64,000 nucleotides of DNA from an uncultured virus (IMG/VR IMGVR_UViG_3300017747_003095). Lineage: Duplodnaviria; Heunggongvirae; Uroviricota; Caudoviricetes. The position numbers and the translations under genes are program-made. Of this stretch, positions 5,529 through 20,606 are shown piece after piece; within the stretch, counting starts at the first letter, position 1, and every line of letters begins with the position of its first letter. Below the pieces are notes generated by a model that saw only the letters and a program-made list of their open reading frames with translations, was not told where the DNA came from and did no database searches. The stretch lies in IMG/VR virus record IMGVR_UViG_3300017747_003095. The stretch is one strand, 5' to 3'.

Positions 5529-5542
5529 ACTAATTAGGTTTG

Positions 5543-5615
5543 TGACTAGAGGTGGGCTCGAACCACCGACGCATGAGTTAGACCCTCACCGCTCTACCAA
5601 CTGAGCTACCTAGCC
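5543..5615 (-). tRNA. Atypical tRNA, nominal anticodon TCT (Arg)
   Basis: GGCTAGG-TA-GCTC-AGTTGGTA-GAGC-G-GTGAG-GGTCTAA-CTCAT-GCGTC-GGTGG-TTCGAGC-CCACC-TCTAGTC-A; full cloverleaf, but G at position 33 and no encoded CCA. Confidence 0.8.
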
Positions 5616-6900: not shown

Positions 6901-7100
6901 GATATCTTGAAAAGTTTTTTTAATGCGCCCTCGTCTTGGATGACCTTCTTCATCTTCCATACGCATAGGGCGTAGCTGCCTGTGATTATTTTTACGCCAT
7001 TGTAAGAAAGAGTCCAAGAGAACTTAGACTCTTTCTTCTTTGGCTTCTTTCCGTAGTGGAACTCTTTCCACTGCTCTCTAGAAAGACTCTCCTCGCTCAT
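6897..7100 (-). CDS. Hypothetical basic protein
   Basis: 67-aa ORF translationally coupled to nuclease. Confidence 0.55.
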   Translation of the reverse strand: MSEESLSREQWKEFHYGKKPKKKESKFSWTLSYNGVKIITGSYALCVWKMKKVIQDEGALKKLFKIS

Positions 7101-7254
7101 ACCTAGCCCAGTCTACTTAATCAATTGGTTAAGTATGCTCCTCTGCTCTACGATGTGATCATGACGATCCATCGCGGTCACAAACCCAGGATCTGCACTA
7201 AGCACCGCCTTAACGGTAGAGCAATGCTGCTTGTACATAGCGTAACTGTTCTCA

Positions 7255-7971: not shown

Positions 7972-8049
7972 TTTTGAATTGATTTTTAGTGAAAAAAGTT
8001 TTTTTTGTTATGCAATTATAGAGAGATTTAACTAAATCTCAAAGGCAAT

Positions 8050-8256
8050 TTACTTAAATATTTTGTCGAAAATTGAAAACCATCCAATAATCGAAAAAGC
8101 GTAGGCTATACACCATAGGATAGCGAAGCCTACGATCTGAAGTGAGCTCCAGTGGAATGAAAGAAAGGTGGCTTCAATGAAAGCCCATACACATAAACCT
8201 TGGGATGCGACTGACAATATCAGTGGTAGCCATCCATGCAATATCATATTTTTCAT
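8050..8256 (-). CDS. Small two-TM membrane protein
   Basis: Two hydrophobic helices; ATGA coupling to upstream gene. Confidence 0.55.
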   Translation of the reverse strand: MKNMILHGWLPLILSVASQGLCVWAFIEATFLSFHWSSLQIVGFAILWCIAYAFSIIGWFSIFDKIFK

Positions 8257-8522
8257 TGTTTCGAAACTAAGATTACTACTACTTTGTAAATTCTGCCCGT
8301 CTCGTCCAGAATACTTCTGGTGATGCATACGTAGGAAGGGTTGTACTTCCTGCGCCATTGGACAAGGGCTGCTGAGATGTTCCTAGAGGTGCGCTTGTTG
8401 AACGCCTTGCCCTCGGGAAAGAACTCTATCGAGTCACCTACCTTTTCTAAGGAGGAGAAGTTATACTTGCTCGGTCTCCCTAGAGTACTCTTCTTCTCTG
8501 ATTTTTCTGATGTTTGGTTCAT
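8253..8522 (-). CDS. Putative small DNA-binding phage protein
   Basis: GRPSKYNFSSLEKVGDS motif common in phage proteins. Confidence 0.5.
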   Translation of the reverse strand: MNQTSEKSEKKSTLGRPSKYNFSSLEKVGDSIEFFPEGKAFNKRTSRNISAALVQWRRKYNPSYVCITRSILDETGRIYKVVVILVSKQ

Positions 8523-9201
8523 AGCTGAGTATTCTTGAGATTGTTGTGGATTTGAATTCTGAATTTGATTTGGTGCGAACACCTGATCCGTTGAGTGAGT
8601 CTGCGATGTCTGCTAGGGTTCTGCCTTGTGCCCTTTGTGAGAACACGTCCCTAACAACAGCGAACTCTTTGCTGCACTGCAATAAGTTGTCACCGTCGTT
8701 ACAGATCCATCCGTATGGGATAATCCCGTTCTTCCGGTAAGTATCCTTCAGGTGTCGCTTGACATCCCTAGTGCGTTCTGAGATTTGATTGCGCTCAAAC
8801 TCAGCAAACATTACTAGCGTTTGAAAAAATAGCCAACCGACAGAAGTAATAGTGTTGAGTGAGTTTCCGCCCATGACAACAATGAACAGAGGTATCTCTT
8901 GGGTGTTCCAATTCTTTACCGTCACTAACGCATCAATAGAGTTACGGAACATCCTATCAACCTTGATGGAAACGACACCGACCTCCTTGCCTTGGCTCTT
9001 CATGACAGCCAGCTCCTTGAGTAGCTTAGCGCCCTGAGGTCTCCTTCCGATCTCCTTGTATGCGGACACATCCTCGTCAGCGAACACTGCACCCATCGTG
9101 TAATCGTTTTGGGTGCAGTATCTTTTTATCGTAGCGAGTTGCATCTCCATAGAGTTCTCCTGATCGTCAGTAGAGACCCTGATGTATGGGAGGATGATCA
9201 T
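8461..9201 (-). CDS. Serine recombinase (resolvase catalytic domain + short recombinase domain)
   Basis: YIRVSTDDQ (catalytic Ser), DEDVSA, RRPQ, VDRMFRN, AEFERNQISER, PYGW. Confidence 0.92.
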   Translation of the reverse strand: MIILPYIRVSTDDQENSMEMQLATIKRYCTQNDYTMGAVFADEDVSAYKEIGRRPQGAKLLKELAVMKSQGKEVGVVSIKVDRMFRNSIDALVTVKNWNTQEIPLFIVVMGGNSLNTITSVGWLFFQTLVMFAEFERNQISERTRDVKRHLKDTYRKNGIIPYGWICNDGDNLLQCSKEFAVVRDVFSQRAQGRTLADIADSLNGSGVRTKSNSEFKSTTISRILSYEPNIRKIREEEYSRETEQV

Positions 9202-9677
9202 GGTCTAGAGATTGAAAGGACTCCGTTTTCAGAGCTGATCTTTAGTTCTTGGACGCCATTGCTGACGATGACGGTGTAACGGTCATCTATGCCTATCCTG
9301 ATGGCATCTATCTTGGTCTCGGTGGTGGTCACGCTAACAACCTCGGGCTCTGTCTTGTTAGCAATCGCAGACGTAGGATCGGCTATGCCGAACACTGGCT
9401 TTGAGTTTGGTGACTTTGCTACGGGAATCCTTCTAGCACCCCTCTCGTGTTCACACTTAGGGCTGTACCCATCGGGGATTGGCTCGTCTAGCTCGCACCA
9501 CTTCCTGAACCAATTGATCAGGGTTCGTGGGTTTATCTCTACATGGGGATGCCTCTCAAGGGTTGAGGTGACTATGCTCAGGTAGTTTGCATGCACACCC
9601 GTGCCTTTCTTCTGACTTTCTAGGTCTAACCTGAAGTCAGCATCGATGTCAATTCTTTTCATTGCATTGTTTTTCAT
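9198..9677 (-). CDS. Hypothetical protein
   Basis: ORF coupled to recombinase start. Confidence 0.6.
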   Translation of the reverse strand: MKNNAMKRIDIDADFRLDLESQKKGTGVHANYLSIVTSTLERHPHVEINPRTLINWFRKWCELDEPIPDGYSPKCEHERGARRIPVAKSPNSKPVFGIADPTSAIANKTEPEVVSVTTTETKIDAIRIGIDDRYTVIVSNGVQELKISSENGVLSISRP

Positions 9678-9699
9678 AGCTCGGTTTTGGGTTTTGTTC

Positions 9700-9945
9700 T
9701 TATGGGAAAGGATCTTCTTCGTCATCATCATCTATCAAGCTGTTGAGCCAGCTCACTAGGTATGGTAAGTTCATCTTGAGTATGTGCACGGGCTGACCCC
9801 ATTGCGACCCTACGGAAGATGCTAGTATCTCGATGTAACCATTGGCTTGTGCGTCGTACCAAATAAATACCACCTCAGCCTCGGATATGATGTTCTCGTC
9901 ACCACGATGATGACGAGAACCAATAAACTCATACTCACTTTCCAT
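9700..9945 (-). CDS. Hypothetical acidic protein
   Basis: 81-aa ORF in co-oriented run. Confidence 0.55.
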   Translation of the reverse strand: MESEYEFIGSRHHRGDENIISEAEVVFIWYDAQANGYIEILASSVGSQWGQPVHILKMNLPYLVSWLNSLIDDDDEEDPFP

Positions 9946-10483
9946 AGTCTCCTAACTTGCCTTCAGTTGCTGCGTAAGTGGCAGCCGATGCCATAATAGA
10001 ATTCAATGCAGCCTCAGGGACTGACTGAAGTATCTGCTTGTAGTTAAACACAAGGGTCAACGGGTCTTTCAGGAACAAGGAATGGAAGTGGGATACTAGT
10101 ATCCCCTTTGAGAAGAATAGCGGAGGTAGTCCGCAGTCTGCTGTGAATTCAGCAAAGATCTCCGCTGTTGGGGTCTCTATCTTATGCTCCACCAAATACT
10201 TCCCGAACATAAAGCCTAGGTGCATCGATACCTCAGAGAACACCTCGGACAGCTCCTCTGCAAATCCGCCATCGAACATGTTCTTGTCCGTGCAGTTCGC
10301 TAAAGCCTGAGCGTCATTGGTCGAGTCATCTGTGTCCGATGTCATCATAGCCAAGCTAGGGGCTAAGGCTTTCCGAAGGAGGTGCATGAGCGTTTCCTTC
10401 TCTTGCTCTGTCAGCTCATTGTCCACTGCGTACTGTTCCTTGTACGACTTCACTGCCTGATTTACTAAATCGCTTTTTGTCAT
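9935..10483 (-). CDS. Hypothetical protein
   Basis: 182-aa ORF in co-oriented run. Confidence 0.65.
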   Translation of the reverse strand: MTKSDLVNQAVKSYKEQYAVDNELTEQEKETLMHLLRKALAPSLAMMTSDTDDSTNDAQALANCTDKNMFDGGFAEELSEVFSEVSMHLGFMFGKYLVEHKIETPTAEIFAEFTADCGLPPLFFSKGILVSHFHSLFLKDPLTLVFNYKQILQSVPEAALNSIMASAATYAATEGKLGDYGK

Positions 10484-10504
10484 TTCTGATTTGATTTTTG
10501 GGGT

Positions 10505-10774
10505 TTATTTTTGTTTTACAATAAATGCTTCGTAGTCCACTATGCCGATGCCGTAACCAATCTCTATAGCGGTTATCACTATTGCATAGCTAGGATGTAT
10601 GTTGCAGAATGAGTGACAGAAATCAGGGATTATTCTAATACCTTTTTTAATGTAATAATCCCTGATCATAGCCTCGGCTTCGAGGCTCATTTGTTTGGAG
10701 GTCAATTCATGACTAGACGTGATGCCTAGTGATAGCCTAGATCCTGGGCTTACACGGGTTACTGCGTATTCCAT
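10505..10774 (-). CDS. Hypothetical protein
   Basis: 89-aa ORF downstream of promoter at 10794-10801. Confidence 0.55.
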   Translation of the reverse strand: MEYAVTRVSPGSRLSLGITSSHELTSKQMSLEAEAMIRDYYIKKGIRIIPDFCHSFCNIHPSYAIVITAIEIGYGIGIVDYEAFIVKQK

Positions 10775-10793
10775 TTTGCTGGTTTTGGGTGGG

Positions 10794-10801
10794 CAAATAT
10801 A
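10794..10801 (-). promoter_or_regulatory. Bacteroidota sigma-A -7 element
   Basis: TATATTTG on minus strand with TTTG upstream, intergenic. Confidence 0.6.
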
Positions 10802-10826
10802 TTAATTTATTTACAAAACAAAATAT

Positions 10827-11240
10827 TTATGGTCTTGCCTGAGCTATTTCGTACTGTTTCTTGATCTTATTCGCCATGTACTGCTCTAGTTCGTCATGCC
10901 ATTCGCCATCCCATTGACGGGCTTGGTTGGTTCGTTCGAACTCTGTGGTAAACTCTTGCGCTGCCTGCCATTTGCTTCCCATCCCATCGAAGAGGTTGAT
11001 ATCCTCCTCCATCAAGGCTTTGTCTTCCGCCCGTTCGATGGCAGCGGCGATCTCGTAGTGGGACTCGAGGTAGCACTCGAAGCCTTCGATGTCAGCCTTG
11101 CCCCATATGGCGTCCTTGTGCTTGCCTTCGTCTTCTAGCTTGGCGAAGTATGCGGATGCGTCTGATTGGCTCAGGAATAAGCGCATGGATATCATTGCGC
11201 CAGTGTTTGGATTGTTGAGGATGATTACGTGTGCCTTCAT
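10827..11240 (-). CDS. Hypothetical early protein
   Basis: ATGA coupled to upstream ORF. Confidence 0.6.
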   Translation of the reverse strand: MKAHVIILNNPNTGAMISMRLFLSQSDASAYFAKLEDEGKHKDAIWGKADIEGFECYLESHYEIAAAIERAEDKALMEEDINLFDGMGSKWQAAQEFTTEFERTNQARQWDGEWHDELEQYMANKIKKQYEIAQARP

Positions 11241-11458
11241 GATGTCTGTAGGTTTTCTTTTTCTGATTCTATTTCGGTATCTATTGCGAACCATATCTGC
11301 TCCATTGTTGCAGGGTTTGTTAGTGCGCCATTGAGGATGTCTTGCGCTGTCTCAGGGTCACAAGTGAACCTGCTGTACACATCATCGATGTGCCATAGGT
11401 TGTCTACAAAGAACCCTGCGTCTCGCAAGGTGGCTTTAGCTTTTTCAATTTCATTCAT
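11237..11458 (-). CDS. Hypothetical early protein
   Basis: LRDAGFFVDNLWHIDDV...AQDIL motif. Confidence 0.6.
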   Translation of the reverse strand: MNEIEKAKATLRDAGFFVDNLWHIDDVYSRFTCDPETAQDILNGALTNPATMEQIWFAIDTEIESEKENLQTS

Positions 11459-11481
11459 TGGTCTTAGAATATGGGTTAGTT

Positions 11482-11844
11482 TTATTTTATGATCCAATGT
11501 AATCTACCTTCCTGCACTTCGAAGGTCTCGTCGCTTTCGTCCCAATCAAGGAACAGCTGAACGCCTCCCCTAATATCTTCCTCAGAAAAGGCGAACGGAA
11601 GAATTACTGAGTGTATGAACTCTCCGCTCACGACGTCGGAATGAAAGTATTCAGCCCTGAGCAAGTCGAAAATCTTTTCCTTGTCTCCAATCGGCTCATA
11701 AGAATCTGCTCTTATGAACTCTAGGTCAAACTTTTCAAGGCTAGTCTCTTCGGCTATCCTGATTGCTTCATTTTCGCTCTCTGCTTCGACCTCTATCACA
11801 CATCTGTATGTGGCGTAGCACTGTATTGCGATTTTCTTTTTCAT
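11482..11844 (-). CDS. Hypothetical early protein
   Basis: IEVEAESENEAIRIA motif frequent in small phage early proteins. Confidence 0.6.
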   Translation of the reverse strand: MKKKIAIQCYATYRCVIEVEAESENEAIRIAEETSLEKFDLEFIRADSYEPIGDKEKIFDLLRAEYFHSDVVSGEFIHSVILPFAFSEEDIRGGVQLFLDWDESDETFEVQEGRLHWIIK

Positions 11845-11855
11845 GATGATTTGGG

Positions 11856-12209
11856 TTATGGGTTTAGGGTTTCAATGGATCTATCGATTGATAGGATCAG
11901 TTCTCTTGGGATGCTGTGTTCGAACTCACAGTCTAGATCCGAGTGCTCGTAGTGGTCAGGTGTGTCTCTATCGCCTTGGATCTTGTGCTCGATCACGCTG
12001 CCGTTTACGAGCATAGATATGCGCAAGTAACCTCTCTGATGTAGTACAGATAGGTCAGTGTACTTCAGGTCAGGAAACCACTTGTCGAAGATGGTCTCTA
12101 GGAATAGCTGATCTACGTCTTCACTTGGGACTTGATTTAGTTCTTTGGGGACAGCAGCTAGGATATCAACCCTAGCTGTGATGGCGATTGGTTTTGGCTT
12201 GTTTCTCAT
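11856..12209 (-). CDS. Hypothetical early protein
   Basis: 117-aa ORF. Confidence 0.6.
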   Translation of the reverse strand: MRNKPKPIAITARVDILAAVPKELNQVPSEDVDQLFLETIFDKWFPDLKYTDLSVLHQRGYLRISMLVNGSVIEHKIQGDRDTPDHYEHSDLDCEFEHSIPRELILSIDRSIETLNP

Positions 12210-12234
12210 TTGGAGATGGTTGATTAAGTTTGGC

Positions 12235-12295
12235 TCAGGCAGAGGGGCTCGAACCCTCGAACGAGCATGTGCCCGTTTGCGCCTTGCTTACCCGA
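12235..12295 (-). ncRNA. tRNA-like element copy A (acceptor-like stem + T-arm, no D-stem or anticodon loop)
   Basis: TCGGGTA-AGCAAGGCGCA-AACGGGCA-CA-TGCTCGTT-C-GAGGG-TTCGAGC-CCCTC-TGCCTGA. Confidence 0.7.
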
Positions 12296-12301
12296 TGCGT
12301 G

Positions 12302-13261
12302 TTATGCCATCACAAAGGATGGTTCGTTGATCCAAGACAGTAACTGCTTGTATGCCCTCTCGTTGGTCTCAGCATCGCTGCCGAACATCAGGCTGTAGTC
12401 CTTGTCACGGGTGTTCGATGTGTGGTTAGTGTAACGGGTCACCGCATTGAACAGTGCCCATAGGGTCTCACCTTGCTCATCGATCGACTTGTCGATGTCC
12501 GCAGCGAATGCAGCCATGTTGTTCTTGGTCTTGCTGCTCACGTCCGCAGCGGATGTGGTGATGCTCTTCCCGAACACACTCGATACGATATCAGCGATGT
12601 GCTGACGTTCGAACCTGCGTGTACTGGCGATCTCGAATACCTGCATCTGATTGTCCTCGAACGTGAGCACCTTGCGCAGGGATGCTACTGCCTCATCGAT
12701 GCGCTGCTGCATTGAGGATGTGTGTCTGATCTTGCTCACGTCACGATTGGCGATGGCGAATGTGTTAGCGCAGCAGATCACCTGATTGGTCGTGCCGAAG
12801 CCGAGGGACATGCTCCCATCATGGCTGTTGGTCAGGGTGATGAAGCGATTGATACCGCTCTTGCCGATGTGCAGTTGAGGTAGCTCCATCTGAACGAACA
12901 CCCGAGATCCGCCTCGTAGTGACCCTCCGCCCATGTTCCCGAACGACCCGAGGGTCTCGGAATTGTTCCATGGGTGAATTAGTTCTAGGTCTGTGCTGAA
13001 GACCTCCTTTCCGGCATCGTATGCGATGCTCACCATCTCGCTGTTCTGTAGGTGCTCGTAACGTGACCCTACGATGCCGAGGTACGCATTCGAATCGCTG
13101 CGGATGGATGCGTATGAATCGGGCACTACGAGCAGGTCATCCGCTGCCGTGTTCACGTACATCTTTTCTTTGGTCACAGTCCAATTGAGACCCGTTGCCT
13201 GAAGGATTTCGAAAATGATTTCTTCTCTTGTCATGTTGTTGTTTGTTGATGCTGTGTTCAT
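12302..13261 (-). CDS. DUF932/DUF945 phage/plasmid-like protein
   Basis: GLNWTV, LGIVGSRYEHLQN, GSLRGGSRVF, NSHDGS, VICCANT, IRHT, TLWALFNAVTRY. Confidence 0.85.
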   Translation of the reverse strand: MNTASTNNNMTREEIIFEILQATGLNWTVTKEKMYVNTAADDLLVVPDSYASIRSDSNAYLGIVGSRYEHLQNSEMVSIAYDAGKEVFSTDLELIHPWNNSETLGSFGNMGGGSLRGGSRVFVQMELPQLHIGKSGINRFITLTNSHDGSMSLGFGTTNQVICCANTFAIANRDVSKIRHTSSMQQRIDEAVASLRKVLTFEDNQMQVFEIASTRRFERQHIADIVSSVFGKSITTSAADVSSKTKNNMAAFAADIDKSIDEQGETLWALFNAVTRYTNHTSNTRDKDYSLMFGSDAETNERAYKQLLSWINEPSFVMA

Positions 13262-13269
13262 GATTGAAT

Positions 13270-13308
13270 GTGCGTGTAGAGTCGCACCCCTCGGTCTTGT
13301 GTGGGTTA
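13270..13308 (-). repeat. 39-bp intergenic cassette repeat R1
   Basis: TAACCCACACAAGACCGAGGGGTGCGACTCTACACGCAC; begins with upstream stop, 8 nt before ATG 13261. Confidence 0.95.
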
Positions 13309-13848
13309 AGAAATGAATTTGTTGTATTGTTCCTCTGTGATCTCTGTGTATCCCGACCAACCATCGAACTCACTAAGCAATGTGGTTGGCGAATCTGTGA
13401 TTGGATCGTAGGCACACACAGAGAAGTCACCACTCTTTTTTATCTTATTGATAGCCTTGTCAATGTTAGAACTGTCATGATAAACCTCACACGCATCATA
13501 CCCGAATAGAAAGTATTGCATCTGTTTTTTGCGGTCATCAACAATTTGAATTAGCTTGATAAGACAAGCTAGTTCGTCCTCATGATTGGCAATCACAGTG
13601 TGCAGTTCGTACTTCTCTCGAAAGAATCTAAATGCTTGTGAGAATGTAGGTGCTGTTACTGTCTTAGGAGCGTAAGAATTATCAATGAGGTGCTCATCTG
13701 AATTGATCCGTGAGGATGCTGTATATGCAGCCCATAGGAACTTATTGTCGTCCTTCTCTGCTGCTGAATATAATGCCACGCATGGCTCTTTAAATCCTAG
13801 CCTTTTGAGTATTAATGATTGCTCGTATGGCACAAAGTCTTTTTGCAT
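13306..13848 (-). CDS. Hypothetical protein, YFLFG-domain paralogue 1
   Basis: C-terminal YFLFG...AYDP...LL..F.GW...EITEEQY shared with two neighbours. Confidence 0.75.
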   Translation of the reverse strand: MQKDFVPYEQSLILKRLGFKEPCVALYSAAEKDDNKFLWAAYTASSRINSDEHLIDNSYAPKTVTAPTFSQAFRFFREKYELHTVIANHEDELACLIKLIQIVDDRKKQMQYFLFGYDACEVYHDSSNIDKAINKIKKSGDFSVCAYDPITDSPTTLLSEFDGWSGYTEITEEQYNKFIS

Positions 13849-13856
13849 GATGAAAC

Positions 13857-13895
13857 GTGCGTATAGAGTCGCACCCCTCGGTCTTGTGTGGGTTA
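13857..13895 (-). repeat. 39-bp intergenic cassette repeat R2
   Basis: One transition vs R1 (loop); 8 nt before ATG 13848. Confidence 0.95.
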
Positions 13896-13898
13896 AAA

Positions 13899-14054
13899 TT
13901 AGTGTGATGAAAGGTCATTTAGGGCATCGATCTCAGCCTCTTCTAGGTAGATCCTGAAGCCATTACTTAGGACGATATAGTCAAAGCCTATATCGATTAT
14001 TCTCTTGTTTATGAGAACCTCTTTTGTCTGTTCTGATATGCCTGATGCGCTCAT
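13899..14054 (-). CDS. Small hypothetical protein
   Basis: MSASGISEQTKEVL...; fills gap between paralogue 2 and R2. Confidence 0.55.
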   Translation of the reverse strand: MSASGISEQTKEVLINKRIIDIGFDYIVLSNGFRIYLEEAEIDALNDLSSH

Positions 14055-14058
14055 GCTC

Positions 14059-14466
14059 TTAAGACTTGAATTTGTAGTATTGTTCTTCGGTGATCTCTGT
14101 GTGTAAAAACCATGCACCAAATGCAGATAGCAATTGGTTTGGAGTTGATGTCATCGGATTGTAAGCAAACACTTTGAAGTTGGCATCTCTTTTTATCTTA
14201 TCGATTGCTTGGTCTATGCTAATCGTGCCATTGTAAAGATCGGACGGCTCATAGCCAAAGAGAAAATATTTCGTATCCCTTTTGTAATGGTCAAAGAAGT
14301 CGATCATGCATGCGTACTCACCCTTGTCTTGCTTAGAGAACGCTGACTTGTCATATGCATCGTAAAGGCTTTGGTCGACATCAAACTGTCGGTCGTACTC
14401 TAGCTTACTAGGCAGGATCTCTACTCTGAGCTGAACGAATAGGTAAAATGAATATGTGTTTGACAT
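14059..14466 (-). CDS. Hypothetical protein, YFLFG-domain paralogue 2
   Basis: YFLFG...AYNP...LLSAFGAW..TEITEEQY. Confidence 0.75.
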   Translation of the reverse strand: MSNTYSFYLFVQLRVEILPSKLEYDRQFDVDQSLYDAYDKSAFSKQDKGEYACMIDFFDHYKRDTKYFLFGYEPSDLYNGTISIDQAIDKIKRDANFKVFAYNPMTSTPNQLLSAFGAWFLHTEITEEQYYKFKS

Positions 14467-14473
14467 TGTGAAT

Positions 14474-14512
14474 GTGCGTGTAGAGTCGCACCCCTCGGTC
14501 TTGTGTGGGTTA
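14474..14512 (-). repeat. 39-bp intergenic cassette repeat R3
   Basis: Identical to R1; contains upstream TAA, 7 nt before ATG 14466. Confidence 0.95.
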
Positions 14513-14824
14513 GATATTGTTGTATACTTTTAGTTCTCCGCTTTCTTCTAGCTCTTTTCTGATCGTGTATCTCCACGTTGAAAGTTCGCTGTACCTGCCA
14601 TCTTCAAAGTAGTAGTTCAGGTCTAGTATGTCCAATTCGGATAGGTTTGGTTGGAGTCCATATCTCCTGAAGAACCAATCGTTAAATTCAGCGACATCGA
14701 ACCTATCGATGAAGTCGATGTAACATGGCTCTTCTTCAGAGTCCTTATCGAATTGCAAGATCGCTCCGGTGGCTGTATCTATCTCTACGACACCCCACGA
14801 TGATATTAATCTTGTTGTATCCAT
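14510..14824 (-). CDS. Hypothetical acidic early protein
   Basis: MDTTRLISSWG...; lies exactly between R4 and R3. Confidence 0.7.
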   Translation of the reverse strand: MDTTRLISSWGVVEIDTATGAILQFDKDSEEEPCYIDFIDRFDVAEFNDWFFRRYGLQPNLSELDILDLNYYFEDGRYSELSTWRYTIRKELEESGELKVYNNI

Positions 14825-14831
14825 GGTAAGT

Positions 14832-14870
14832 GTGCGTATGGAGTCGCACCCCTCGGTCTTGTATGGGTTA
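14832..14870 (-). repeat. 39-bp intergenic cassette repeat R4
   Basis: Three transitions vs R1, none in stem; 7 nt before ATG 14824. Confidence 0.95.
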
Positions 14871-14871
14871 G

Positions 14872-15120
14872 TTATTTTGATGTGAATGCTACGATGCCCT
14901 TCATGGCTTCTGTGTCGATGTCGATCTCTTCCATGACCATCCCCTCGATGCCTAGCTCTTGTTGAGCCTTCTCGAGAGCCATGTCCCATTCATCGGAAAA
15001 GTCATCAGCGGTTATCTTTGGGACTTCCTTCCTGAAGTCGACAAAGTTAGACTTGAGTTTGTCCCAAAGCATATCCGCTCCCGTCTCAGTCTTAGCTACG
15101 ATTTGAAAGTATGTGCTCAT
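14872..15120 (-). CDS. Hypothetical acidic protein
   Basis: 82-aa ORF. Confidence 0.65.
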   Translation of the reverse strand: MSTYFQIVAKTETGADMLWDKLKSNFVDFRKEVPKITADDFSDEWDMALEKAQQELGIEGMVMEEIDIDTEAMKGIVAFTSK

Positions 15121-15121
15121 C

Positions 15122-15508
15122 CTATTTCTTTTTAAGTTCGTAATACTCTTCTTTGAAGATCTTGCAGTAGTCTGCCCATCCGCTGAATTTCTCTAGCAAT
15201 GTTTCGGGAGGGTCTACAATCGGATTGTATGCGAAGACAGCGTGAGATTTCTTGCTTATCTCTTGCAGATAGCAAGAAAGCCCTTCTCTGTGCTCATAAG
15301 CCTGAACAGCGAGCTCACCGAATAGGAAGTAGGTGATCCCATTCTTCACATGGGTCAGGAATTCCTCCATGCTGTGGGGTGACTTGAGCCATGCCTGATA
15401 GAGCGATTTGTCGATGCCGTACTGGGCGTTTGCCTCACGTTCGGCAGGGATCATCTTGTTGCGTAGGTCTACGAAAATGTAGAATTGATATTCTGAGTTA
15501 GAGTTCAT
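15122..15508 (-). CDS. Hypothetical protein, YFLFG-domain paralogue 3
   Basis: YFLFG...AYNP...LLEKFSGW; N-terminus similar to paralogue 2. Confidence 0.75.
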   Translation of the reverse strand: MNSNSEYQFYIFVDLRNKMIPAEREANAQYGIDKSLYQAWLKSPHSMEEFLTHVKNGITYFLFGELAVQAYEHREGLSCYLQEISKKSHAVFAYNPIVDPPETLLEKFSGWADYCKIFKEEYYELKKK

Positions 15509-15514
15509 GTGGAT

Positions 15515-15553
15515 GTGCGTGTAGAGTCGCACCCCTCGGTCTTGTATGGGTTA
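15515..15553 (-). repeat. 39-bp intergenic cassette repeat R5
   Basis: One transition vs R1; 6 nt before ATG 15508. Confidence 0.95.
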
Positions 15554-15573
15554 GTATGGGTTTCTTTGCACTA

Positions 15574-15858
15574 TCATCGGGTCACATATTCCCTCTTCGG
15601 AATGTTCCAAATGGATGGGATCGGCATCTCGATCTTGTAGTCGAGGGATGTCTCAAGGTCAGCTAACACTAGCTGTGCTGCTGTCCAATCGGATGGTATC
15701 ATGCTGCGCTCGATCGGGAGCACAGACTCAACTGTGCTCACTTGCCGGAGATAACGAACAGCCAAGATCACCTTGGTCTGTTCGTATGGCACAGCGATCG
15801 TAGGTCTGATCCTCTCGTAGGTCACACCTACAATCGATCTCTCGTTATATGCTCCCAT
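15574..15858 (-). CDS. Hypothetical protein
   Basis: 94-aa ORF. Confidence 0.6.
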   Translation of the reverse strand: MGAYNERSIVGVTYERIRPTIAVPYEQTKVILAVRYLRQVSTVESVLPIERSMIPSDWTAAQLVLADLETSLDYKIEMPIPSIWNIPKREYVTR

Positions 15859-15861
15859 GGG

Positions 15862-16032
15862 TTAGAATCTGATCTTTGAGCCCTTGGTGATGGATGTGTA
15901 CTTGCCCTGCTTCTTGCCGTGATTGGTACAGATACCTCCGCATCCGTGAGAAGATACGCAAGAGGAAAGCATAGAGATTAAGAGAACCAAGGCAACTAAT
16001 GCCTTCAGGATCATGAATGAGTTATTTTTCAT
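15862..16032 (-). CDS. Small predicted lipoprotein (not in ORF track)
   Basis: MKNNSFMILKALVALVLLISMLSS-CVSSHGCGGICTNHGKKQGK...; hydrophobic core + LSSC lipobox. Confidence 0.65.
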   Translation of the reverse strand: MKNNSFMILKALVALVLLISMLSSCVSSHGCGGICTNHGKKQGKYTSITKGSKIRF

Positions 16033-16061
16033 CGCTCGATGTGTTTTGGGATTGGGTTATG

Positions 16062-16337
16062 TTAAACTGCTGCCTTAACTAAGACAGATAATACTTGCAT
16101 GTGTAATTCGTACGGAAGATTGCCTTCCTTGGAGACCTTCAACAAGGTCTCGAATAGGTCAGGTGCTGATGCGATCAACTTTGCATTGGCATCGAATTCC
16201 TCGTAGTTAGGGATATGATGACCCCATCCTGCTACATGACAGATCCGTCTTACTGTAGCTGTATTATTGTCTTCAGCGATTACTGATAAGCTATCGAGGT
16301 CTCCTTCGACCTTCCATGTTCCTTTGGTGATGTTCAT
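16062..16337 (-). CDS. Conserved small phage protein (T-x-G-x-W ... ANAxLIAxAPDL family)
   Basis: TKGTWKV...ANAKLIASAPDLFETL. Confidence 0.75.
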   Translation of the reverse strand: MNITKGTWKVEGDLDSLSVIAEDNNTATVRRICHVAGWGHHIPNYEEFDANAKLIASAPDLFETLLKVSKEGNLPYELHMQVLSVLVKAAV

Positions 16338-16340
16338 GAC

Positions 16341-16775
16341 TCTATGAATTTGGGGTGAATTATTGAATGATTAAATCCTCAAGAATTGATTTGTAAAAAG
16401 GTCGAGATTCTTTATCGCTCTCAATGGCTTGACCGAGGTCACGAACTAGCATTCGGTGAGCATCGATGTAATCACCGAAGCACTCGTCTTGTATCTCATG
16501 CCATGACCCGTTAGAATCAAAGAACATGAGGATGGATAAAGCCTGCTTGAATTTTAGCTCTTCTGCCGTTACTTTTCTTAGGTTCATAGGTGTGCCACCC
16601 AATGCCCAATCGAAAATGTAACCATGGGGTTCTAATGCAGCCTCTAAGTGAAGGCATGAATCATAATCATTCTCTGCATCTAGGAATGATTCAACTAATG
16701 CCCGAACATTATCGGGCAGGAGGATTGTTGAATTGAATAAATCTTGCATGATCTATGAATTTGGGGTGAATTATT
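16341..16775 (-). repeat. Pair of 24-bp identical intergenic direct repeats flanking one gene
   Basis: TCTATGAATTTGGGGTGAATTATT at 16341-16364 and 16752-16775. Confidence 0.9.
16360..16749 (-). CDS. Hypothetical early protein
   Basis: MQDLF...LLPDNVRAL...GYIFDWALGG.P.NLR. Confidence 0.7.
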   Translation of the reverse strand: MQDLFNSTILLPDNVRALVESFLDAENDYDSCLHLEAALEPHGYIFDWALGGTPMNLRKVTAEELKFKQALSILMFFDSNGSWHEIQDECFGDYIDAHRMLVRDLGQAIESDKESRPFYKSILEDLIIQ

Positions 16776-16914
16776 TAAGATTGAAGAAGTACATTGTGGT
16801 ATCTCCTGAGAACGATACATTGAATTTGAACCTGCTACCATCCTCGTATTGGATGGCGCAGATCTCTCTGTTGGTTCGTGATTCGATCAGTCGGATGGCT
16901 TGAGCTAGGTTCAT
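16771..16914 (-). CDS. Small hypothetical protein (47 aa)
   Basis: MNLAQAIRLIES...IQYEDGSRFKFN; stop lies within 24-bp repeat. Confidence 0.55.
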   Translation of the reverse strand: MNLAQAIRLIESRTNREICAIQYEDGSRFKFNVSFSGDTTMYFFNLK

Positions 16915-16918
16915 GTCT

Positions 16919-17089
16919 CTATGAGTTAGGGGTTTCTTTAGGGGTGATGATATCGTATCCTACTACCTTCACATTCTTGCGATATAGGAAGTTCACGTAA
17001 TTGTCGAGATGTCTCTCGTCATTGAATGCTTTGACAAGTACATCGTACTTGCCATTTAGCTTACTGATCAGGATCTGTGCTTGGATCAT
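16919..17089 (-). CDS. Small hypothetical protein (56 aa)
   Basis: MIQAQILISKLNGK...FNDERHLDNYV. Confidence 0.55.
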   Translation of the reverse strand: MIQAQILISKLNGKYDVLVKAFNDERHLDNYVNFLYRKNVKVVGYDIITPKETPNS

Positions 17090-17262
17090 GGGTTAATTAT
17101 TTGGATGTTGTGTTGTGCGTGAATTCTGATGCCTCTCCAACTTTCGACCTTGACTCTGTTGTTGGATGTAAAGCCTACGATGACTCCTCTGTAGACATCT
17201 ACGAAGTAGCCATTCTTGGTGATTGTGGCAAGTACTTTCTGCCCGATTTCTAATTTTTCCAT
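17086..17262 (-). CDS. Small SH3/KOW-like protein
   Basis: MEKLEIGQKVL...GVIVGFT...VKV. Confidence 0.55.
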   Translation of the reverse strand: MEKLEIGQKVLATITKNGYFVDVYRGVIVGFTSNNRVKVESWRGIRIHAQHNIQIINP

Positions 17263-17281
17263 CTGTCTGTAGGTTAGGTAT

Positions 17282-17461
17282 TTATATTGGCTCAATAACA
17301 CTAAAAGATACCCAGCCTCCTCTCCAAATTTGAGAGCAATAACTAATTTGCGCTCTATTTTTTTTAGCGTCAATTGCTATAATGAAACCTACTCTACCTA
17401 CTACATTGCGACCTTTTACTCTTACTACTTGTAATCCGATTGTTGCGTCTTGAATGTTCAT
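17282..17461 (-). CDS. Small SH3-like protein (59 aa, not in ORF track)
   Basis: MNIQDATIGLQVVRVKG..VVGRVGFIIAID..KNRAQI. Confidence 0.55.
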   Translation of the reverse strand: MNIQDATIGLQVVRVKGRNVVGRVGFIIAIDAKKNRAQISYCSQIWRGGWVSFSVIEPI

Positions 17462-17493
17462 CTTTTTTGTTTTCTTGAATTTGAGTTTATAAA

Positions 17494-18177
17494 TTAAGAT
17501 ACCACGAAGCCCGTGGTATCTTTTCTTGCTTTGCCTTTTGCCTTCAGCCCTAGGATGCCTCCCTGAATGTCTAGCATCAGGTCATCTCTGCTGTCCCCAT
17601 CGTATACCTTGAAACCATTCCATGTCTCAGGAAGTTCGTTGAATACCACAGCAGCGATCCCGCCATTGTTCAGGTGAGATAGCACATCGCTCTCGTTTAC
17701 TTCCGATCTAGACAAGGTCACCACATATCGGTGACCTGATGCTAGGATGCGCTCTCCTGCCTTCGATGGGATCTTTGTGTAGTCATAGAAGACAATGTTG
17801 CTTTCGATGTGGCGCATCGTACCAACAGCCCATTCTACGATCTTGATGTCGGATGTCCCATTCAAGCGGATCGCAATCTCTTGTCCGGCATTCTTCTTTG
17901 CATAGGCATTCATCTCATCGATGATCTGATTAGTGAACATGCTTCGGTCAGATAGCATCGCCTCAGTACGTTTGATACGGGCATTCGCAACATTCGCAAA
18001 TGCACCACGACCTGCGGTGAATAGACATGCAGCCACACATCCTGCGGATGCCTTCGGGCACAAGTTGATCCCTTTGCTATTCTGTGTGAACGGCGCAAGG
18101 TATAGGATGAAAGATTTGCGATTGTTCTTCGCTGTCTTAGCGTTTGTTGATCCGTCTGATAAGAATTTGGTCTTCAT
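17494..18177 (-). CDS. GP88-family phage protein
   Basis: LYLAP...NLCP.AS.GC..ACL..AGRG, RLNGTSD, FYDYTK, DGD..D, GLKAKG. Confidence 0.8.
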   Translation of the reverse strand: MKTKFLSDGSTNAKTAKNNRKSFILYLAPFTQNSKGINLCPKASAGCVAACLFTAGRGAFANVANARIKRTEAMLSDRSMFTNQIIDEMNAYAKKNAGQEIAIRLNGTSDIKIVEWAVGTMRHIESNIVFYDYTKIPSKAGERILASGHRYVVTLSRSEVNESDVLSHLNNGGIAAVVFNELPETWNGFKVYDGDSRDDLMLDIQGGILGLKAKGKARKDTTGFVVS

Positions 18178-18189
18178 GATATTAGAGAA

Positions 18190-18414
18190 TTAGAGTTGAG
18201 AGATTTTAGAAATGAGTCTGATCTTGATTTGGTTGAAGGTATTGGATGAGTCGACATATTTTTTTCCGCTCATCTTAGGCATCTGCTCGGCATAGAACAA
18301 CAGCGAGTAGAATTCATCTAGGATTTCGAAATGTTCAGGATTGCGCTCAACATTGAAGTTGATCAAGCTAGTGAGGGTCTCACTGATCGATTTTTTTGTG
18401 ATTTCTTCGTTCAT
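18190..18414 (-). CDS. Hypothetical early protein
   Basis: 74-aa ORF. Confidence 0.55.
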   Translation of the reverse strand: MNEEITKKSISETLTSLINFNVERNPEHFEILDEFYSLLFYAEQMPKMSGKKYVDSSNTFNQIKIRLISKISQL

Positions 18415-18416
18415 GA

Positions 18417-18671
18417 TTACAAGATTTTCTCGATTTGTTTCTGTTGGTTCTTTGGTAGTTCGTAGAGGTGATTGAGGTATCGGTCGAAGACCTCCTCACA
18501 TTGTCTGTCTAGCTTTCTGACCGATCTCTCATCGCCATTGTTGTCGGCAACATTTCGTAGATCGTTCAGGTGATTGTATCTGTCCAATGCTTTCAGGCAT
18601 CTATTGACAGTCGTTTGATTCTTGGGGTTGATTGCCTTCATGACTAGAATAGTTGATTTGGTTTGTTCCAT
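18417..18671 (-). CDS. Hypothetical early protein
   Basis: 84-aa helical ORF. Confidence 0.6.
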   Translation of the reverse strand: MEQTKSTILVMKAINPKNQTTVNRCLKALDRYNHLNDLRNVADNNGDERSVRKLDRQCEEVFDRYLNHLYELPKNQQKQIEKIL

Positions 18672-18814
18672 GTTCTGATGATCAAAGAGATGCCGAAAAC
18701 ATCAGCAAATGCTGATGAATACATGCACAGATCGATGTTCTGAGTTACTAGTGACAACATCATTAGCACTACATTGAAGAAGAAAAGGAAGAATAGAATG
18801 CGATTGGCTTTCAT
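18644..18814 (-). CDS. Small membrane protein, first ORF of the early transcript
   Basis: MKANRILFFLFFFNVVLMMLSLV... Confidence 0.5.
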   Translation of the reverse strand: MKANRILFFLFFFNVVLMMLSLVTQNIDLCMYSSAFADVFGISLIIRTWNKPNQLF

Positions 18815-18830
18815 GGTTTCTAAGATTTAG

Positions 18831-18887
18831 TGAGAGCAGAGGGACTCGAACCCTCGATGTATATACATTGCGCCTTGCTTACTCTCA
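18831..18887 (-). ncRNA. tRNA-like element copy B
   Basis: TGAGAGTA-AGCAAGGCGCA-ATGTA-TA-TACAT-C-GAGGG-TTCGAGT-CCCTC-TGCTCTCA. Confidence 0.7.
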
Positions 18888-18894
18888 TCGTGTG

Positions 18895-19238
18895 ATTTTT
18901 ACATGCATCATTAACAACACAGCATGTCTATTTATTGGATATGACCCCTTCCCTTTTAGAGCCCAATTGCCAAGCATTTCTGCCATCGGTTAAGAGCTAA
19001 CCCCATAAATCTTTAATTCACTTGGAGTCCATCGTTTACATTGCTTGCTTATGATTGCACTGCGAATGGCATCACTACTGAGGATGCATCGGCTGATTTA
19101 ACAGCATGCGTTAGAGTCGCATCCCTCTGCTGTCTGAATCAACTCTGTAGCATGCTGTCATCACGACATGAGCTACAAGGAAGAGACGAAACAAACAAGT
19201 AAAGAACGAGTGCCCTGATGAGTGACTCATCGTTTGGA
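18895..19238 (-). ncRNA. Candidate long structured leader/ncRNA of early transcript
   Basis: No ORF of 60 aa or more; several hairpins (GGTTA/TAACC, GCA-GAAA-TGC, ACATGC/GCATGT, TGTAGC/GCTACA, TGATTCA-GACAGC...GCTGT-TAAATCA). Confidence 0.45.
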
Positions 19239-19243
19239 CAGCA

Positions 19244-19274
19244 CGAAAGTACAACCATTTATTGGATTAGCAAA
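19244..19274 (-). promoter_or_regulatory. Main leftward early promoter (Bacteroidota -33/-7)
   Basis: TTTG-N19-TACTTTCG, near consensus TTTG-N19-TAnnTTTG. Confidence 0.65.
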
Positions 19275-19598
19275 TAAAATAAAACGTAGTGATACCAAGG
19301 GTTACAGAGGACTGACCCTTGTAAGCTATTGTTTATCAGTACTTTACGAAGGTGTAAAATAATGAAAAATAAATTAGTCGAAAATGTAACTACCTGATTA
19401 TCAATACCATTATTTTCATCTAGCTTATTTTAGCCTATTTTATTTGCTTATACATATATATGCTAAAGGAGATGACGTATTTCTAGTCATATGACGAGTT
19501 TATTGTCATCGTCAATTTAGTCGTTTTAAAGCGATTTAAGCGACTTTAGGGTCAAAATGAGGGTGTAGTATCACCCATGCCGAGATCGTCGATTTGCC

Positions 19599-20183
19599 CT
19601 ATTTTACTGGTGGTTCAGCTAGGTTATAAGTACGGATCAACTCGGAAGGTATCCTTCGGGCTATGATGTCCATGTTGTCAGGAATTTTGGCATGGATCGG
19701 TTTCAACTTGAGCGCAGCATAGTCTTGGGTGATGAATCTGCTCAGGGGTTCACAATGGTACGCTGCAAGACTCGCAGGGAGCATGAACGATGCAGTCCTA
19801 TACTTTCCATGCTTCATGCTTTTCATGGTCTTCTCAGTATAGATGATACCATAGGAGCGCAGAGTGATCTGTTGTTCTTTCTCGGTGATGTTGCGCAGAG
19901 CTAGCAAGTAGTCATTGTTACTAAATGCCAATTGACATACATGATCAATTTCCTGAATAATACGTGCATAAGTCGCTGATTGTGAGCGAGTTCGCTGCAA
20001 TTTTCTAAAGTAATAGCGACTACTAGAAGGTGGTTTTGCGATGGTTCTCAGGAGGGGTCTATCTTCCTGAAAGCCTCGTCCCCGTTGGATTTCAGCGATT
20101 ATGGCTGTTTCTTCTTCAAGGCAGTACAAAAGATCACCGATTGGTGTTGGGATATCCTGCCATATGCTAGTGATTTCGGGCAT
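19599..20183 (-). CDS. Hypothetical protein
   Basis: 194-aa ORF, no recognisable motif. Confidence 0.45.
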   Translation of the reverse strand: MPEITSIWQDIPTPIGDLLYCLEEETAIIAEIQRGRGFQEDRPLLRTIAKPPSSSRYYFRKLQRTRSQSATYARIIQEIDHVCQLAFSNNDYLLALRNITEKEQQITLRSYGIIYTEKTMKSMKHGKYRTASFMLPASLAAYHCEPLSRFITQDYAALKLKPIHAKIPDNMDIIARRIPSELIRTYNLAEPPVK

Positions 20184-20606
20184 TGTAGGTGTATTGGTAT
20201 GTGTTACTACTATAAATGGATCGCTGTGTTACATTATGTTGGTAGTGTAACGGGCTGAACCCTGCATGGCTGTAGGGCTGGATGCCAATCGACTAGAGCA
20301 GAGTAATGGGTGCATTGGTCTTGATTTAAATGGATGCAGCGACTACTAACTACCTGCATCCAGCGATTACGTAGGGCTACAGCAGAAAAGGGGATGGGGG
20401 GCATGTTCCGATGCTTCCACTGCCGCCCCCGCCCGGCGTAACCCACCCCCTCTCGTAAAAATTATTAATCTACTAATCAGAGCATTAAGTGATTGTGAAT
20501 AAATAGCTCCAGGCATAGCGACGCCCTTTATATCAAAGGAGTTCTGGCTCATTGTAATCATTGCTACATCGTTTTTGAGGTATTGCAAATTTAATAATTT
20601 CATAGA

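What the first reader, a model, noticed from the sequence alone, without database searches (positions are those of the whole stretch)
12235..18887. Two covarying ~60-nt anticodon-less tRNA-like elements in the early transcript
Seen: copies at 12235-12295 and 18831-18887 share GTAAGCAAGGCGCA and CGAGGGTTCGAGYCCCTCTGC. Their closing stems differ in sequence yet still pair (TCGGGTA/TGCCTGA vs TGAGAGTA/TGCTCTCA). Their middle hairpins are entirely different yet still pair (AACGGGCA/TGCTCGTT vs ATGTA/TACAT). The architecture is acceptor-like stem, stemless GG-containing D-like loop, variable hairpin and canonical T-arm, resembling the tRNA-like domain of tmRNA. Both are intergenic and bracket the 12.3-18.8 kb cassette-rich block. 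Inference: an RNA family I do not recognise, acting as RNase P/Z processing punctuation or as tRNA-elbow decoys against tRNA-targeting defences.
Basis: partly seen in the sequence, partly recalled or inferred. Interest (0 to 1): 0.82.

Follow-up and report, generated by a model that had tools for sequence, protein, structure and literature searches.

The report
Anticodon-less tRNA-like elements between phage genes
Two short tRNA-shaped RNA folds with no codon-reading loop sit just in front of genes in the early operon of an uncultured freshwater phage; other phages keep the same fold through matched base changes, so they are probably cut marks for the host's tRNA-trimming enzymes, though no RNA data exist to show it.

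Summary
elA (12295-12234) and elB (18886-18831) each have a 7-bp acceptor stem, a mini D-arm (2-bp stem, pentaloop AAGGC), a short hairpin with a 4-nt loop where the anticodon arm should be, and a canonical T-arm.

ARAGORN and Rfam do not call either one a tRNA, a tmRNA or any other family.

I found three further full members. Two lie at the position of elB in the phage's only syntenic relatives that hold the early region (G008, G007). One lies in an unrelated phage contig (G009).

Across the five, 69 of 70 pair cells are standard pairs, and 9 of 14 pairs change on both sides. The middle hairpin varies from 12 to about 50 nt.

Every member ends 15-24 nt before a start codon.

Best reading (0.45): tRNA-derived processing punctuation in the early polycistronic transcript, cut by RNase P and RNase Z, working like plant mitochondrial t-elements. 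A trans-acting tRNA mimic or decoy is not excluded (0.23).

No RNA run was found, so cutting is inferred, not shown.

This scan has noted similar anticodon-less tRNA look-alikes before, in other phages. I found no paper describing this family.

The parts
12234..12295 (-). elA, 62 nt. Acceptor 5' strand 12295-12289; mini D-arm (GC-AAGGC-GC) 12287-12279; middle hairpin (7 bp, loop ACAU) 12277-12260; T-arm (GAGGG-UUCGAGC-CCCUC) 12258-12242; acceptor 3' strand 12241-12235; discriminator G 12234.
   Evidence: the unconstrained MFE is this fold; CM scores, by construction; pair counts.
12210..12233 (-). 24-nt trailer of elA (CCAAACUUAAUCAACCAUCUCCAA), running to the ATG of the 117-aa gene (11856-12209). 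It is the predicted 5' leader of the downstream mRNA after 3' cleavage.
   Evidence: The stretch AAACUUAAU is shared with the trailer of the G009 element.
18831..18886 (-). elB, 56 nt. Acceptor 5' strand 18886-18880; mini D-arm 18878-18870; middle hairpin (4 bp, loop AUAU) 18868-18857; T-arm (GAGGG-UUCGAGU-CCCUC) 18855-18839; acceptor 3' strand 18838-18832; discriminator A 18831.
   Evidence: (tRNA model 23.3 bits, below the cut-off of 29).
18815..18830 (-). 16-nt trailer of elB (CUAAAUCUUAGAAACC), running to the ATG of the 56-aa ORF (18644-18814).
   Evidence: One low-depth contig of a related strain drops 18644-18825 and joins 5 nt after elB (table 5).
5543..5615 (-). Comparator: a true tRNA-Arg(UCU) in the same leftward operon. 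It has no encoded CCA and ends 14 nt before the ATG at 5528.
   Evidence: (46.3 bits).

Best explanation
elA and elB belong to a conserved, tRNA-derived family of structured RNAs that keeps only the parts tRNA-maturation enzymes read: the stacked acceptor and T helices, and an elbow formed by the T-loop with the GG of a mini D-loop. The anticodon arm is replaced by a freely varying hairpin. They lie inside the leftward early operon, just after a stop codon or non-coding leader and 15-24 nt before a start codon. They most likely act as punctuation. Host RNase P cuts at the 5' end of the fold, ending the upstream message. RNase Z, or an equivalent 3' endonuclease, cuts after the discriminator. 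The phage's own tRNA-Arg has no encoded CCA, which suggests this route. That second cut would give the downstream gene a short, A/C-rich, unstructured leader and release a small tRNA-like by-product of about 56-96 nt. Shown: the fold, its conservation with compensatory changes, its absence from tRNA, tmRNA and Rfam models, and its fixed placement relative to genes. Inferred: transcription as part of the operon, the two cleavages, and their effect on expression.
For: (1) Family and covariation. Five full members were aligned: elA, elB, L186:14538-14633 in G008, L190:5979-6074 in G007, and L357:2490-2567 in G009. Across them 69 of 70 cells form standard pairs (98.6%). Nine of 14 pairs change on both sides, and 0 of 500 shuffles reach the covariation score. 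Sliding the partners by 1-3 columns gives 41.5-54.3% paired. The acceptor stem has 6 of 7 pairs with double changes. The mini D-stem shows GC:3 and CG:2. The T-stem shows GAGGG/CCCUC, GGCGG/CCGCC and GGAGG/CCUCC.

(2) Synteny. G008 and G007 are true syntenic relatives. Each carries its element between the 194-aa gene homologue and the next small gene, where elB sits.

(3) The anticodon arm is dispensable. The middle region is 12 nt in elB, 18 in elA, 33 in G009 and about 50 in G007 and G008. No member has a 7-nt loop. One low-depth contig of a close strain carries insertions inside the elB hairpin only (table 4).

(4) Placement. The discriminator-to-ATG distances are 24, 16, 18, 15 and 21 nt for the five members. 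They are 20 nt for a reduced element in G009 and about 20 nt for a 54-nt look-alike in L268. elA starts 6 nt after a stop codon. Two reduced elements in G009 (acceptor stem, 11-12-nt linker, T-arm) overlap the TAA of the upstream gene by 2 nt.

(5) True or near-true tRNAs sit in the same kind of slot. The window's tRNA-Arg ends 14 nt before an ATG. The odd tRNA of G007 (Rfam 38.5 bits) ends 28 nt before one, near the position of elA.

(6) Precedent. Plant mitochondrial t-elements are non-canonical cloverleaves with the GGTTCRANYCC T-arm motif. Their ends coincide with mRNA ends, and they receive non-encoded C and A (PMC1920247, passages read). RNase P also processes phage M3 and C4 RNAs and operon mRNAs (PMC11143913, passages read).
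Against: There is no RNA evidence of any kind. No listed run is on record as RNA, so transcription, cleavage and CCA addition are all untested.

The same conserved features would also be selected in a trans-acting tRNA mimic.

elA is followed by CCA, which in known systems counteracts RNase Z (recalled, not tested here). The other four members are not, so the 3' step may differ between copies.

Position +1 is U, G, A, U and U in the five members, not the G that RNase P prefers (the preference is recalled).

G008 has no element at the position of elA, so the punctuation is not obligatory.

Only five full members were found, two of them paralogues and two from close relatives. Independent events are therefore few.

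The host is unknown.
Confidence: 0.45

Rival explanations
1. Trans-acting tRNA mimic. The released RNA of about 60 nt is itself the product. It would occupy or distract a host factor that reads the acceptor end or the elbow of tRNAs: a defence toxin that modifies or cleaves tRNA 3' ends, the CCA-adding enzyme, EF-Tu or a modification enzyme. This is a decoy or titrator role.
For: The same conservation of acceptor stem, mini D-arm and T-arm. Two copies per genome, in an early operon rich in small unknown genes. The conserved AAGGC loop and UUCGA T-loop would give a tRNA-like elbow. A message-less tmRNA tRNA-like domain in phage DS6A has been proposed to titrate SmpB (PMC4131195, passage read).
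Against: Acceptor-stem sequences and discriminators differ freely between members (G, A, C, C, C), so no single tRNA identity is mimicked. The tight coupling to start and stop codons is not needed for a trans-acting RNA. No tRNA-targeting or tRNA-repair gene was recognised among the 35 window proteins scanned against Pfam.
Confidence: 0.23
2. Cis-acting 5'-UTR structure. The fold stays attached to the downstream (or upstream) mRNA and stabilises it, or insulates translation of the neighbouring gene, without being cut out.
For: The spacing to the start codon is constant and short at 15-24 nt. Leaders in this operon lack Shine-Dalgarno motifs.
Against: A plain hairpin would do the job. Nothing in this role requires a T-loop, a GG D-loop and a 7-bp acceptor stem stacked as in tRNA.
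Confidence: 0.1
3. Decaying tRNA genes or tRNA-gene fragments, such as attachment-site remnants, with no present function.
For: The elements look tRNA-derived. The same AAGGC mini D-arm occurs in phage tRNAs that ARAGORN calls and that have true 7-nt anticodon loops (L241 Met; L294 and L299 Gln). The window encodes a serine recombinase.
Against: Pairing is kept through double changes in 9 of 14 pairs, and 69 of 70 cells pair. That is not expected of decay. An att fragment carries only the 3' part of a tRNA and needs no matching 5' strand. The position is conserved in phages whose flanking 194-aa protein is only 34% identical.
Confidence: 0.07
4. DNA-level role. The conserved blocks and trailers serve as recombination linkers that let gene cassettes be swapped between phages.
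For: elA and elB are direct repeats flanking a 6.5-kb block whose genes are mostly absent from G007 and G008. In G007 the corresponding block is also flanked by two tRNA-like genes. A contig of a related strain lacks the 56-aa ORF, with the joint 5 nt after elB (depth 2, so weak). The trailer motif AAACUUAAU is shared with an unrelated phage.
Against: Recombination does not select for base-pairing, so this cannot explain. It could be a side effect of conserved RNA genes.
Confidence: 0.08
5. Message-less tmRNA tRNA-like domain that binds SmpB and blocks or hijacks ribosome rescue.
For: The overall shape is similar: acceptor stem, reduced D region, T-arm, no anticodon arm. elA has G3:U70. There is a precedent in phage DS6A (PMC4131195).
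Against: G3:U70 is present in 1 of 5 members (pair 3-94: CG 3, GC 1, GU 1). The discriminator is A in only 1 of 5. ARAGORN reports no tmRNA, and Rfam reports no family of the tRNA/tmRNA clan above threshold.
Confidence: 0.04

Closest known systems
Plant mitochondrial t-elements (Forner et al. 2007, PMC1920247; passages read)
   Same: Both are non-canonical cloverleaves that keep the T-arm motif GGTTCRANYCC and an acceptor-like stem. Both lie next to the ends of coding regions, some inside or touching reading frames. t-elements are proposed, and partly shown, to direct RNase P and RNase Z cuts that make mRNA ends.
   Different: The genetic system differs (organelle versus phage), and there is no sequence homology. 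For t-elements the ends and the added C/A were mapped; here nothing is mapped. The phage family has a defined mini D-arm with the pentaloop AAGGC.
mascRNA / MALAT1 3' tRNA-like element (Rfam mascRNA-menRNA; PMC8457004 seen in the search listing only)
   Same: A tRNA-like fold of about 60 nt without a decoding anticodon loop. It is cut out of a longer transcript by RNase P and RNase Z, so defining the end of the long RNA (recalled).
   Different: It is a eukaryotic nuclear RNA. No Rfam match to it was found in 12000-19100 at E <= 10.
tRNA-like-domain-only tmRNA of mycobacteriophage DS6A (Hudson et al. 2014, PMC4131195; passage read)
   Same: A phage-encoded tRNA-like RNA that lacks an anticodon arm.
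   Different: The alanine identity pair G3:U70 is not conserved here (1 of 5 members), and the tmRNA finders do not call these elements.
Canonical tRNA (Rfam RF00005), and phage tRNAs with the AAGGC mini D-arm
   Same: A 7-bp acceptor stem, a 5-bp T-stem with the loop UUCGAGY, and no spacer between T-stem and acceptor stem. The same mini D-arm is seen in phage tRNA-Met and tRNA-Gln genes called by ARAGORN.
   Different: There is no 7-nt anticodon loop. Scores are below the Rfam cut-off and ARAGORN does not call them. With model R2 the five members score 58-76 bits, against at most 37.5 bits for all other hits in the 154 sources searched.
Phage RNase P substrates: P1/P7 C4 antisense RNA, M3 RNA, and the T4 stable RNAs (PMC11143913, passages read; the T4 species 1 and 2 RNAs are recalled)
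   Same: Small phage RNAs with tRNA-like features that the tRNA-processing machinery matures.
   Different: There is no Rfam C4 match. No antisense target for the elA hairpin exists in the window. The architecture differs.

Membership tests
tRNA (RF00005) | Score at or above the Rfam gathering cut-off (29 bits), or a call by a tRNA finder | tested here: not met
   elB scores 23.3 bits (E 0.25). elA has no match at E <= 10. ARAGORN calls neither.
tRNA (RF00005) | Anticodon arm with a 7-nt loop | tested here: not met
   The middle hairpins have 4-nt loops in elA, elB and G009. G007 and G008 have a long branched helix in that place.
tRNA (RF00005) | 7-bp acceptor stem stacked on a 5-bp T-stem with a UUCRA T-loop | tested here: met
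   Across the five members 34 of 35 acceptor cells and 25 of 25 T-stem cells pair. The T-loop is UUCGAGY or UUCGAUU in all five.
tmRNA tRNA-like domain (including message-less forms) | G3:U70 alanine identity pair | tested here: not met
   Pair 3-94 is CG in 3, GC in 1 and GU in 1 (elA only).
tmRNA tRNA-like domain (including message-less forms) | Detected by tmRNA models | tested here: not met
   ARAGORN finds no tmRNA. Rfam finds no family of the tRNA/tmRNA clan above threshold.
tmRNA tRNA-like domain (including message-less forms) | Binding of SmpB and charging with alanine | not testable with these tools
   This needs biochemistry.
t-element-like processing signal (a functional class, not a homology family) | Non-canonical cloverleaf with the conserved T-arm motif GGTTCRANYCC | tested here: met
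   GGTTCGAGCCC in elA and GGTTCGAGTCC in elB. The motif definition comes from PMC1920247.
t-element-like processing signal (a functional class, not a homology family) | Ends of the fold coincide with mapped mRNA ends, and non-encoded CCA is added | not testable with these tools
   No RNA holder is listed. Only the placement relative to ORFs could be measured.
tRNA-gene fragment / attachment-site remnant | Only the 3' part of a tRNA, with no selected complementary 5' strand | tested here: not met
   The 5' strand is present and covaries: 6 of 7 acceptor pairs change on both sides.
C4-type antisense RNA | Rfam C4 model match, and loops complementary to a target in the phage | tested here: not met
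   No Rfam match. The reverse complement of the elA hairpin occurs only at itself. The elB hairpin was not searched.

The most novel reading that the evidence does not exclude
The elements are not mere cut marks. They would be a phage-encoded class of anticodon-less tRNA mimics whose released RNA of about 60 nt acts in trans. It would present a generic acceptor end and elbow, and so soak up a host anti-phage factor or a translation or quality-control factor that reads tRNA ends. The hypervariable middle hairpin would then be either irrelevant or a second, fast-evolving specificity module.
Probability: 0.2. Interest if true: 0.85.

Novelty: new variant of a known kind. Interest (0 to 1): 0.6.

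Why it matters
If these folds are cut by RNase P and RNase Z, this phage group uses the 'tRNA punctuation' logic known from mitochondria to divide an early operon into separate messages. It would do so with purpose-built elements that have lost decoding. That would add a gene-expression mechanism to phage biology and explain tRNA-like sequences that gene finders miss.

If the released RNAs act in trans, they would be a new kind of RNA-based host manipulation.

Either way the family is small, cleanly defined and easy to test in vitro.

Tried and rejected
- **Exact-motif scans.**
  - The viral scan gave 11 stretches, none with a T-stem.
  - The genome scan gave 9 stretches. Eight had no T-arm. 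One (L019) had a T-arm but no matching 5' acceptor strand, and neither ARAGORN nor Rfam calls it.
None of the 119 had a 5/5 T-stem.
- **Neighbours of DUF932 and GP88 homologues.** L012-L016 and L026-L033 hold no element. G001 proved unrelated to this phage.
- **The quick 'handles' search with model R1.** It found nothing in 11 records, although G007, G008 and G009 do hold members. Its blanks mean nothing.
- **GenBank phages.** There was no blastn match for the block, for elB plus its upstream region, or for the G008 element.
- **RNA evidence.** No RNA holder is listed among the 12 runs returned, all freshwater DNA. The laid DNA contigs gave only weak, depth-2 variants.
- **Antisense target for the elA hairpin.** None in the window.
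- **tRNA-related enzymes near the elements.** Pfam on 35 proteins and PHROGs on 30 proteins found none.
- **Literature.** Six full-text searches found no description of this family. The supplements of the csRNA catalogue (PMC10690425) were not opened and could list it.


Full report
**What is there.** The window is a novel uncultured phage.
- Genes at about 4.8-20.6 kb run leftward. From 20.7 kb rightward lie a primase-helicase, terminase, portal and a 4270-aa ORF.
- There is no near match in GenBank phages.
- The runs that hold this DNA are freshwater metagenomes.
- The two elements read as RNA on the minus strand, the sense strand of the leftward operon.
- elA is 12295-12234 and elB is 18886-18831.
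- Each folds by unconstrained MFE into the same four parts:
  - a 7-bp acceptor stem;
  - a mini D-arm GC-AAGGC-GC;
  - a short hairpin with a 4-nt loop;
  - a T-arm GAGGG-UUCGAGY-CCCUC that abuts the 3' acceptor strand as in tRNA.
- The two shared blocks occur exactly twice in 64 kb. The 21-nt block occurred in none of 100 shuffles.

**What it is not.**
- ARAGORN finds only the tRNA-Arg(UCU) at 5542-5615, and no tmRNA.
- Rfam at gathering score finds only that tRNA.
- At E <= 10, elB reaches 23.3 bits against the tRNA model (cut-off 29) and elA nothing.
- No member has a 7-nt anticodon loop.

**Relatives.**
- Exact-motif scans of the viral, genome and metagenome collections gave no member of the family. 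Nearly all hits lacked a T-arm. One (L019) had a T-arm but no matching 5' acceptor strand.
- Portal and primase searches found the phage's true relatives. tblastn shows that G008 and G007 are syntenic along most of the genome, at about 25-87% protein identity. G006 starts at the primase gene and so lacks the early region.
- Between the homologue of the 194-aa gene and the next small gene, where elB sits, both relatives carry a 96-nt element:
  - G008 at L186:14538-14633;
  - G007 at L190:5979-6074.
- These two elements have a different acceptor stem, a mini D-arm CC-AAGGC-GG, a T-arm GGCGG/CCGCC, and a middle helix of about 50 nt.
- A degenerate pattern scan found a fifth full member in an otherwise unrelated 21-kb phage contig, G009 (L357:2490-2567). 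It has a D-arm CGC-AAGGC-GCG and a 33-nt middle hairpin.
- The same contig holds two reduced copies: acceptor stem, 11-12-nt linker, T-arm.

**Covariation.** On the five-member alignment:
- 69 of 70 cells form standard pairs.
- Nine of 14 pairs change on both sides.
- 0 of 500 shuffles reach the covariation score.
- Sliding the partners drops pairing to 41.5-54.3%.
- With the model R2 built from these five, they score 58-76 bits. That is by construction.
- Everything else in the 154 sources searched scores at most 37.5 bits. Those sources include more than 900 tRNAs called by ARAGORN.

Caveats: there are only five sequences. Two are paralogues, and G007 and G008 are close to each other.

**Placement.**
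- Distances from the discriminator to the next ATG are 24 nt (elA), 16 (elB), 18 (G008), 15 (G007) and 21 (G009). They are 20 nt for a reduced G009 copy and about 20 nt for a 54-nt look-alike in L268.
- elA begins 6 nt after the DUF932 stop codon.
- The two reduced G009 copies overlap the upstream TAA by 2 nt. One of them is followed by a terminator-like hairpin.
- True tRNAs sit in the same kind of slot. The window's tRNA-Arg ends 14 nt before an ATG and has no encoded CCA. G007 has an odd 77-nt tRNA (Rfam 38.5 bits) with 17 nt where the anticodon loop should be, 28 nt before an ATG and near the position of elA.
- Trailers resemble each other: elA GCCAAACUUAAU, G009 CUAAACUUAAU, elB ACUAAAU, G007 CUAAAC.

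**Origin.** The AAGGC mini D-arm is also found in phage tRNAs that ARAGORN calls and that have true anticodon loops: L241 (Met), and L294 and L299 (Gln). The family therefore probably descends from such tRNAs by loss of the anticodon loop. This is an inference.

**Mechanism.**
- What is conserved is the set of features that RNase P, RNase Z and the CCA-adding enzyme are known to read: the stacked acceptor and T helices, and the T-loop/D-loop elbow. This rests on established knowledge, partly read in PMC1920247 and PMC11143913.
- What is free to vary is the arm those enzymes ignore.
- Together with the tight fit between stop and start codons, this makes processing punctuation the best reading (0.45).
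- A trans-acting mimic (0.23), a cis 5'-UTR role (0.10), a recombination linker (0.08), decay (0.07) and an SmpB-titrating tmRNA-like domain (0.04) are ranked under the rival explanations.
- Pairing kept through double changes argues against decay and against att remnants.
- G3:U70 in only 1 of 5 members argues against the tmRNA reading.

**Limits.**
- No listed run is on record as RNA. No cut, RNA end or CCA tail has been seen.
- DNA contigs of related strains gave only weak hints at depth 2. One has insertions confined to the elB middle hairpin. One deletes the 56-aa ORF, with its joint 5 nt after elB.
The true size of the family is therefore unknown.

**Earlier notes of this scan.** One search lists several anticodon-less tRNA look-alikes in other phages, some read the same way. 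They are unchecked AI notes and not independent evidence. One of them led me to the DS6A paper, which I then read in part.

**Literature.** Six searches found no description of this family.

**Verdict.** This is a real, conserved family of structured RNAs, a tRNA-derived variant in no library searched here. Its function is inferred. Interest 0.6.

Noticed in passing
window ~18925-19058 (minus strand), just upstream of elB; L186 ~14400-14530: A non-coding block of about 135 nt is about 95% identical between the window and G008, although the flanking 194-aa proteins are only 34% identical. It is absent from G007 and G009 and has one copy in the window. No Rfam or GenBank phage match was found. 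The fold is no better than shuffles (z = -0.15). It may be a promoter or operator, or an exchanged module.
   Followed up: partly
window 13252-13309, 13839-13896, 14456-14513, 14814-14871, 15497-15554: Five copies of a leader repeat of about 45-58 nt (72-100% identical) lie upstream of ORF starts inside the block between elB and elA. Read on the minus strand, each contains the hairpin GUGCG-ACUCUACA-CGCAC. These look like cassette leaders. Metagenome contig depth peaks at 13369-13902.
   Followed up: partly
window 16341-16367 and 16752-16778: A 27-nt leader repeat (96% identical) lies upstream of two neighbouring small genes (16062-16337 and 16360-16749).
   Followed up: no
L190:2536-2613 (minus), phage G007: A 77-78-nt tRNA passes the Rfam cut-off (38.5 bits), and ARAGORN calls it Gly(gcc). 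It has 17 nt where the 7-nt anticodon loop should be. It lies 28 nt before an ATG, near the position that elA holds in the window.
   Followed up: partly
L437:18357-18402 and 19330-19373 (phage contig G009); also L437:14665-14739: Two reduced tRNA-like elements of 42-45 nt (acceptor stem, 11-12-nt GG-containing linker, T-arm) overlap the TAA stop codon of the upstream gene by 2 nt. One is followed by a terminator-like hairpin. An odd 'tRNA-Cys(aca)' lies 8 nt before another ATG.
   Followed up: partly
IMG/VR loci L241, L263, L294, L299, L399: Phage tRNAs with true 7-nt anticodon loops (Met CAU, Gln CUG, perhaps Gly UCC) carry a mini D-arm with the pentaloop AAGGC. ARAGORN misses some of them.
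   Followed up: no
L268:1493-1546; L425:158-215: Two further short tRNA-like folds occur in unrelated phage contigs. L268 is 54 nt, with an AAGGC loop and no middle hairpin, about 20 nt before an ATG (R2 36 bits). L425 is 58 nt, with normal D and T arms and no anticodon arm.
   Followed up: no
window 18826-18857, run X2 (table 7): A contig of another organism matches the T-arm and 3' acceptor part of elB and then continues with unlike sequence. By my reading, that sequence looks like the anticodon and long variable arm of a tRNA-Leu(CAA). This hints at the tRNA type the elements derive from.
   Followed up: no
window 4800-20600, start-codon upstream regions: The 32 leftward genes show no Shine-Dalgarno motif. 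Their leaders are A/C-rich. This would fit a Bacteroidota-type host, which is an inference and was not tested.
   Followed up: no
window 19561-19576 (minus): A terminator-like hairpin lies right after the 194-aa gene and is partly conserved in G008. It is followed by about 600 nt of AT-rich non-coding DNA before elB. elB may therefore head its own transcription unit.
   Followed up: no
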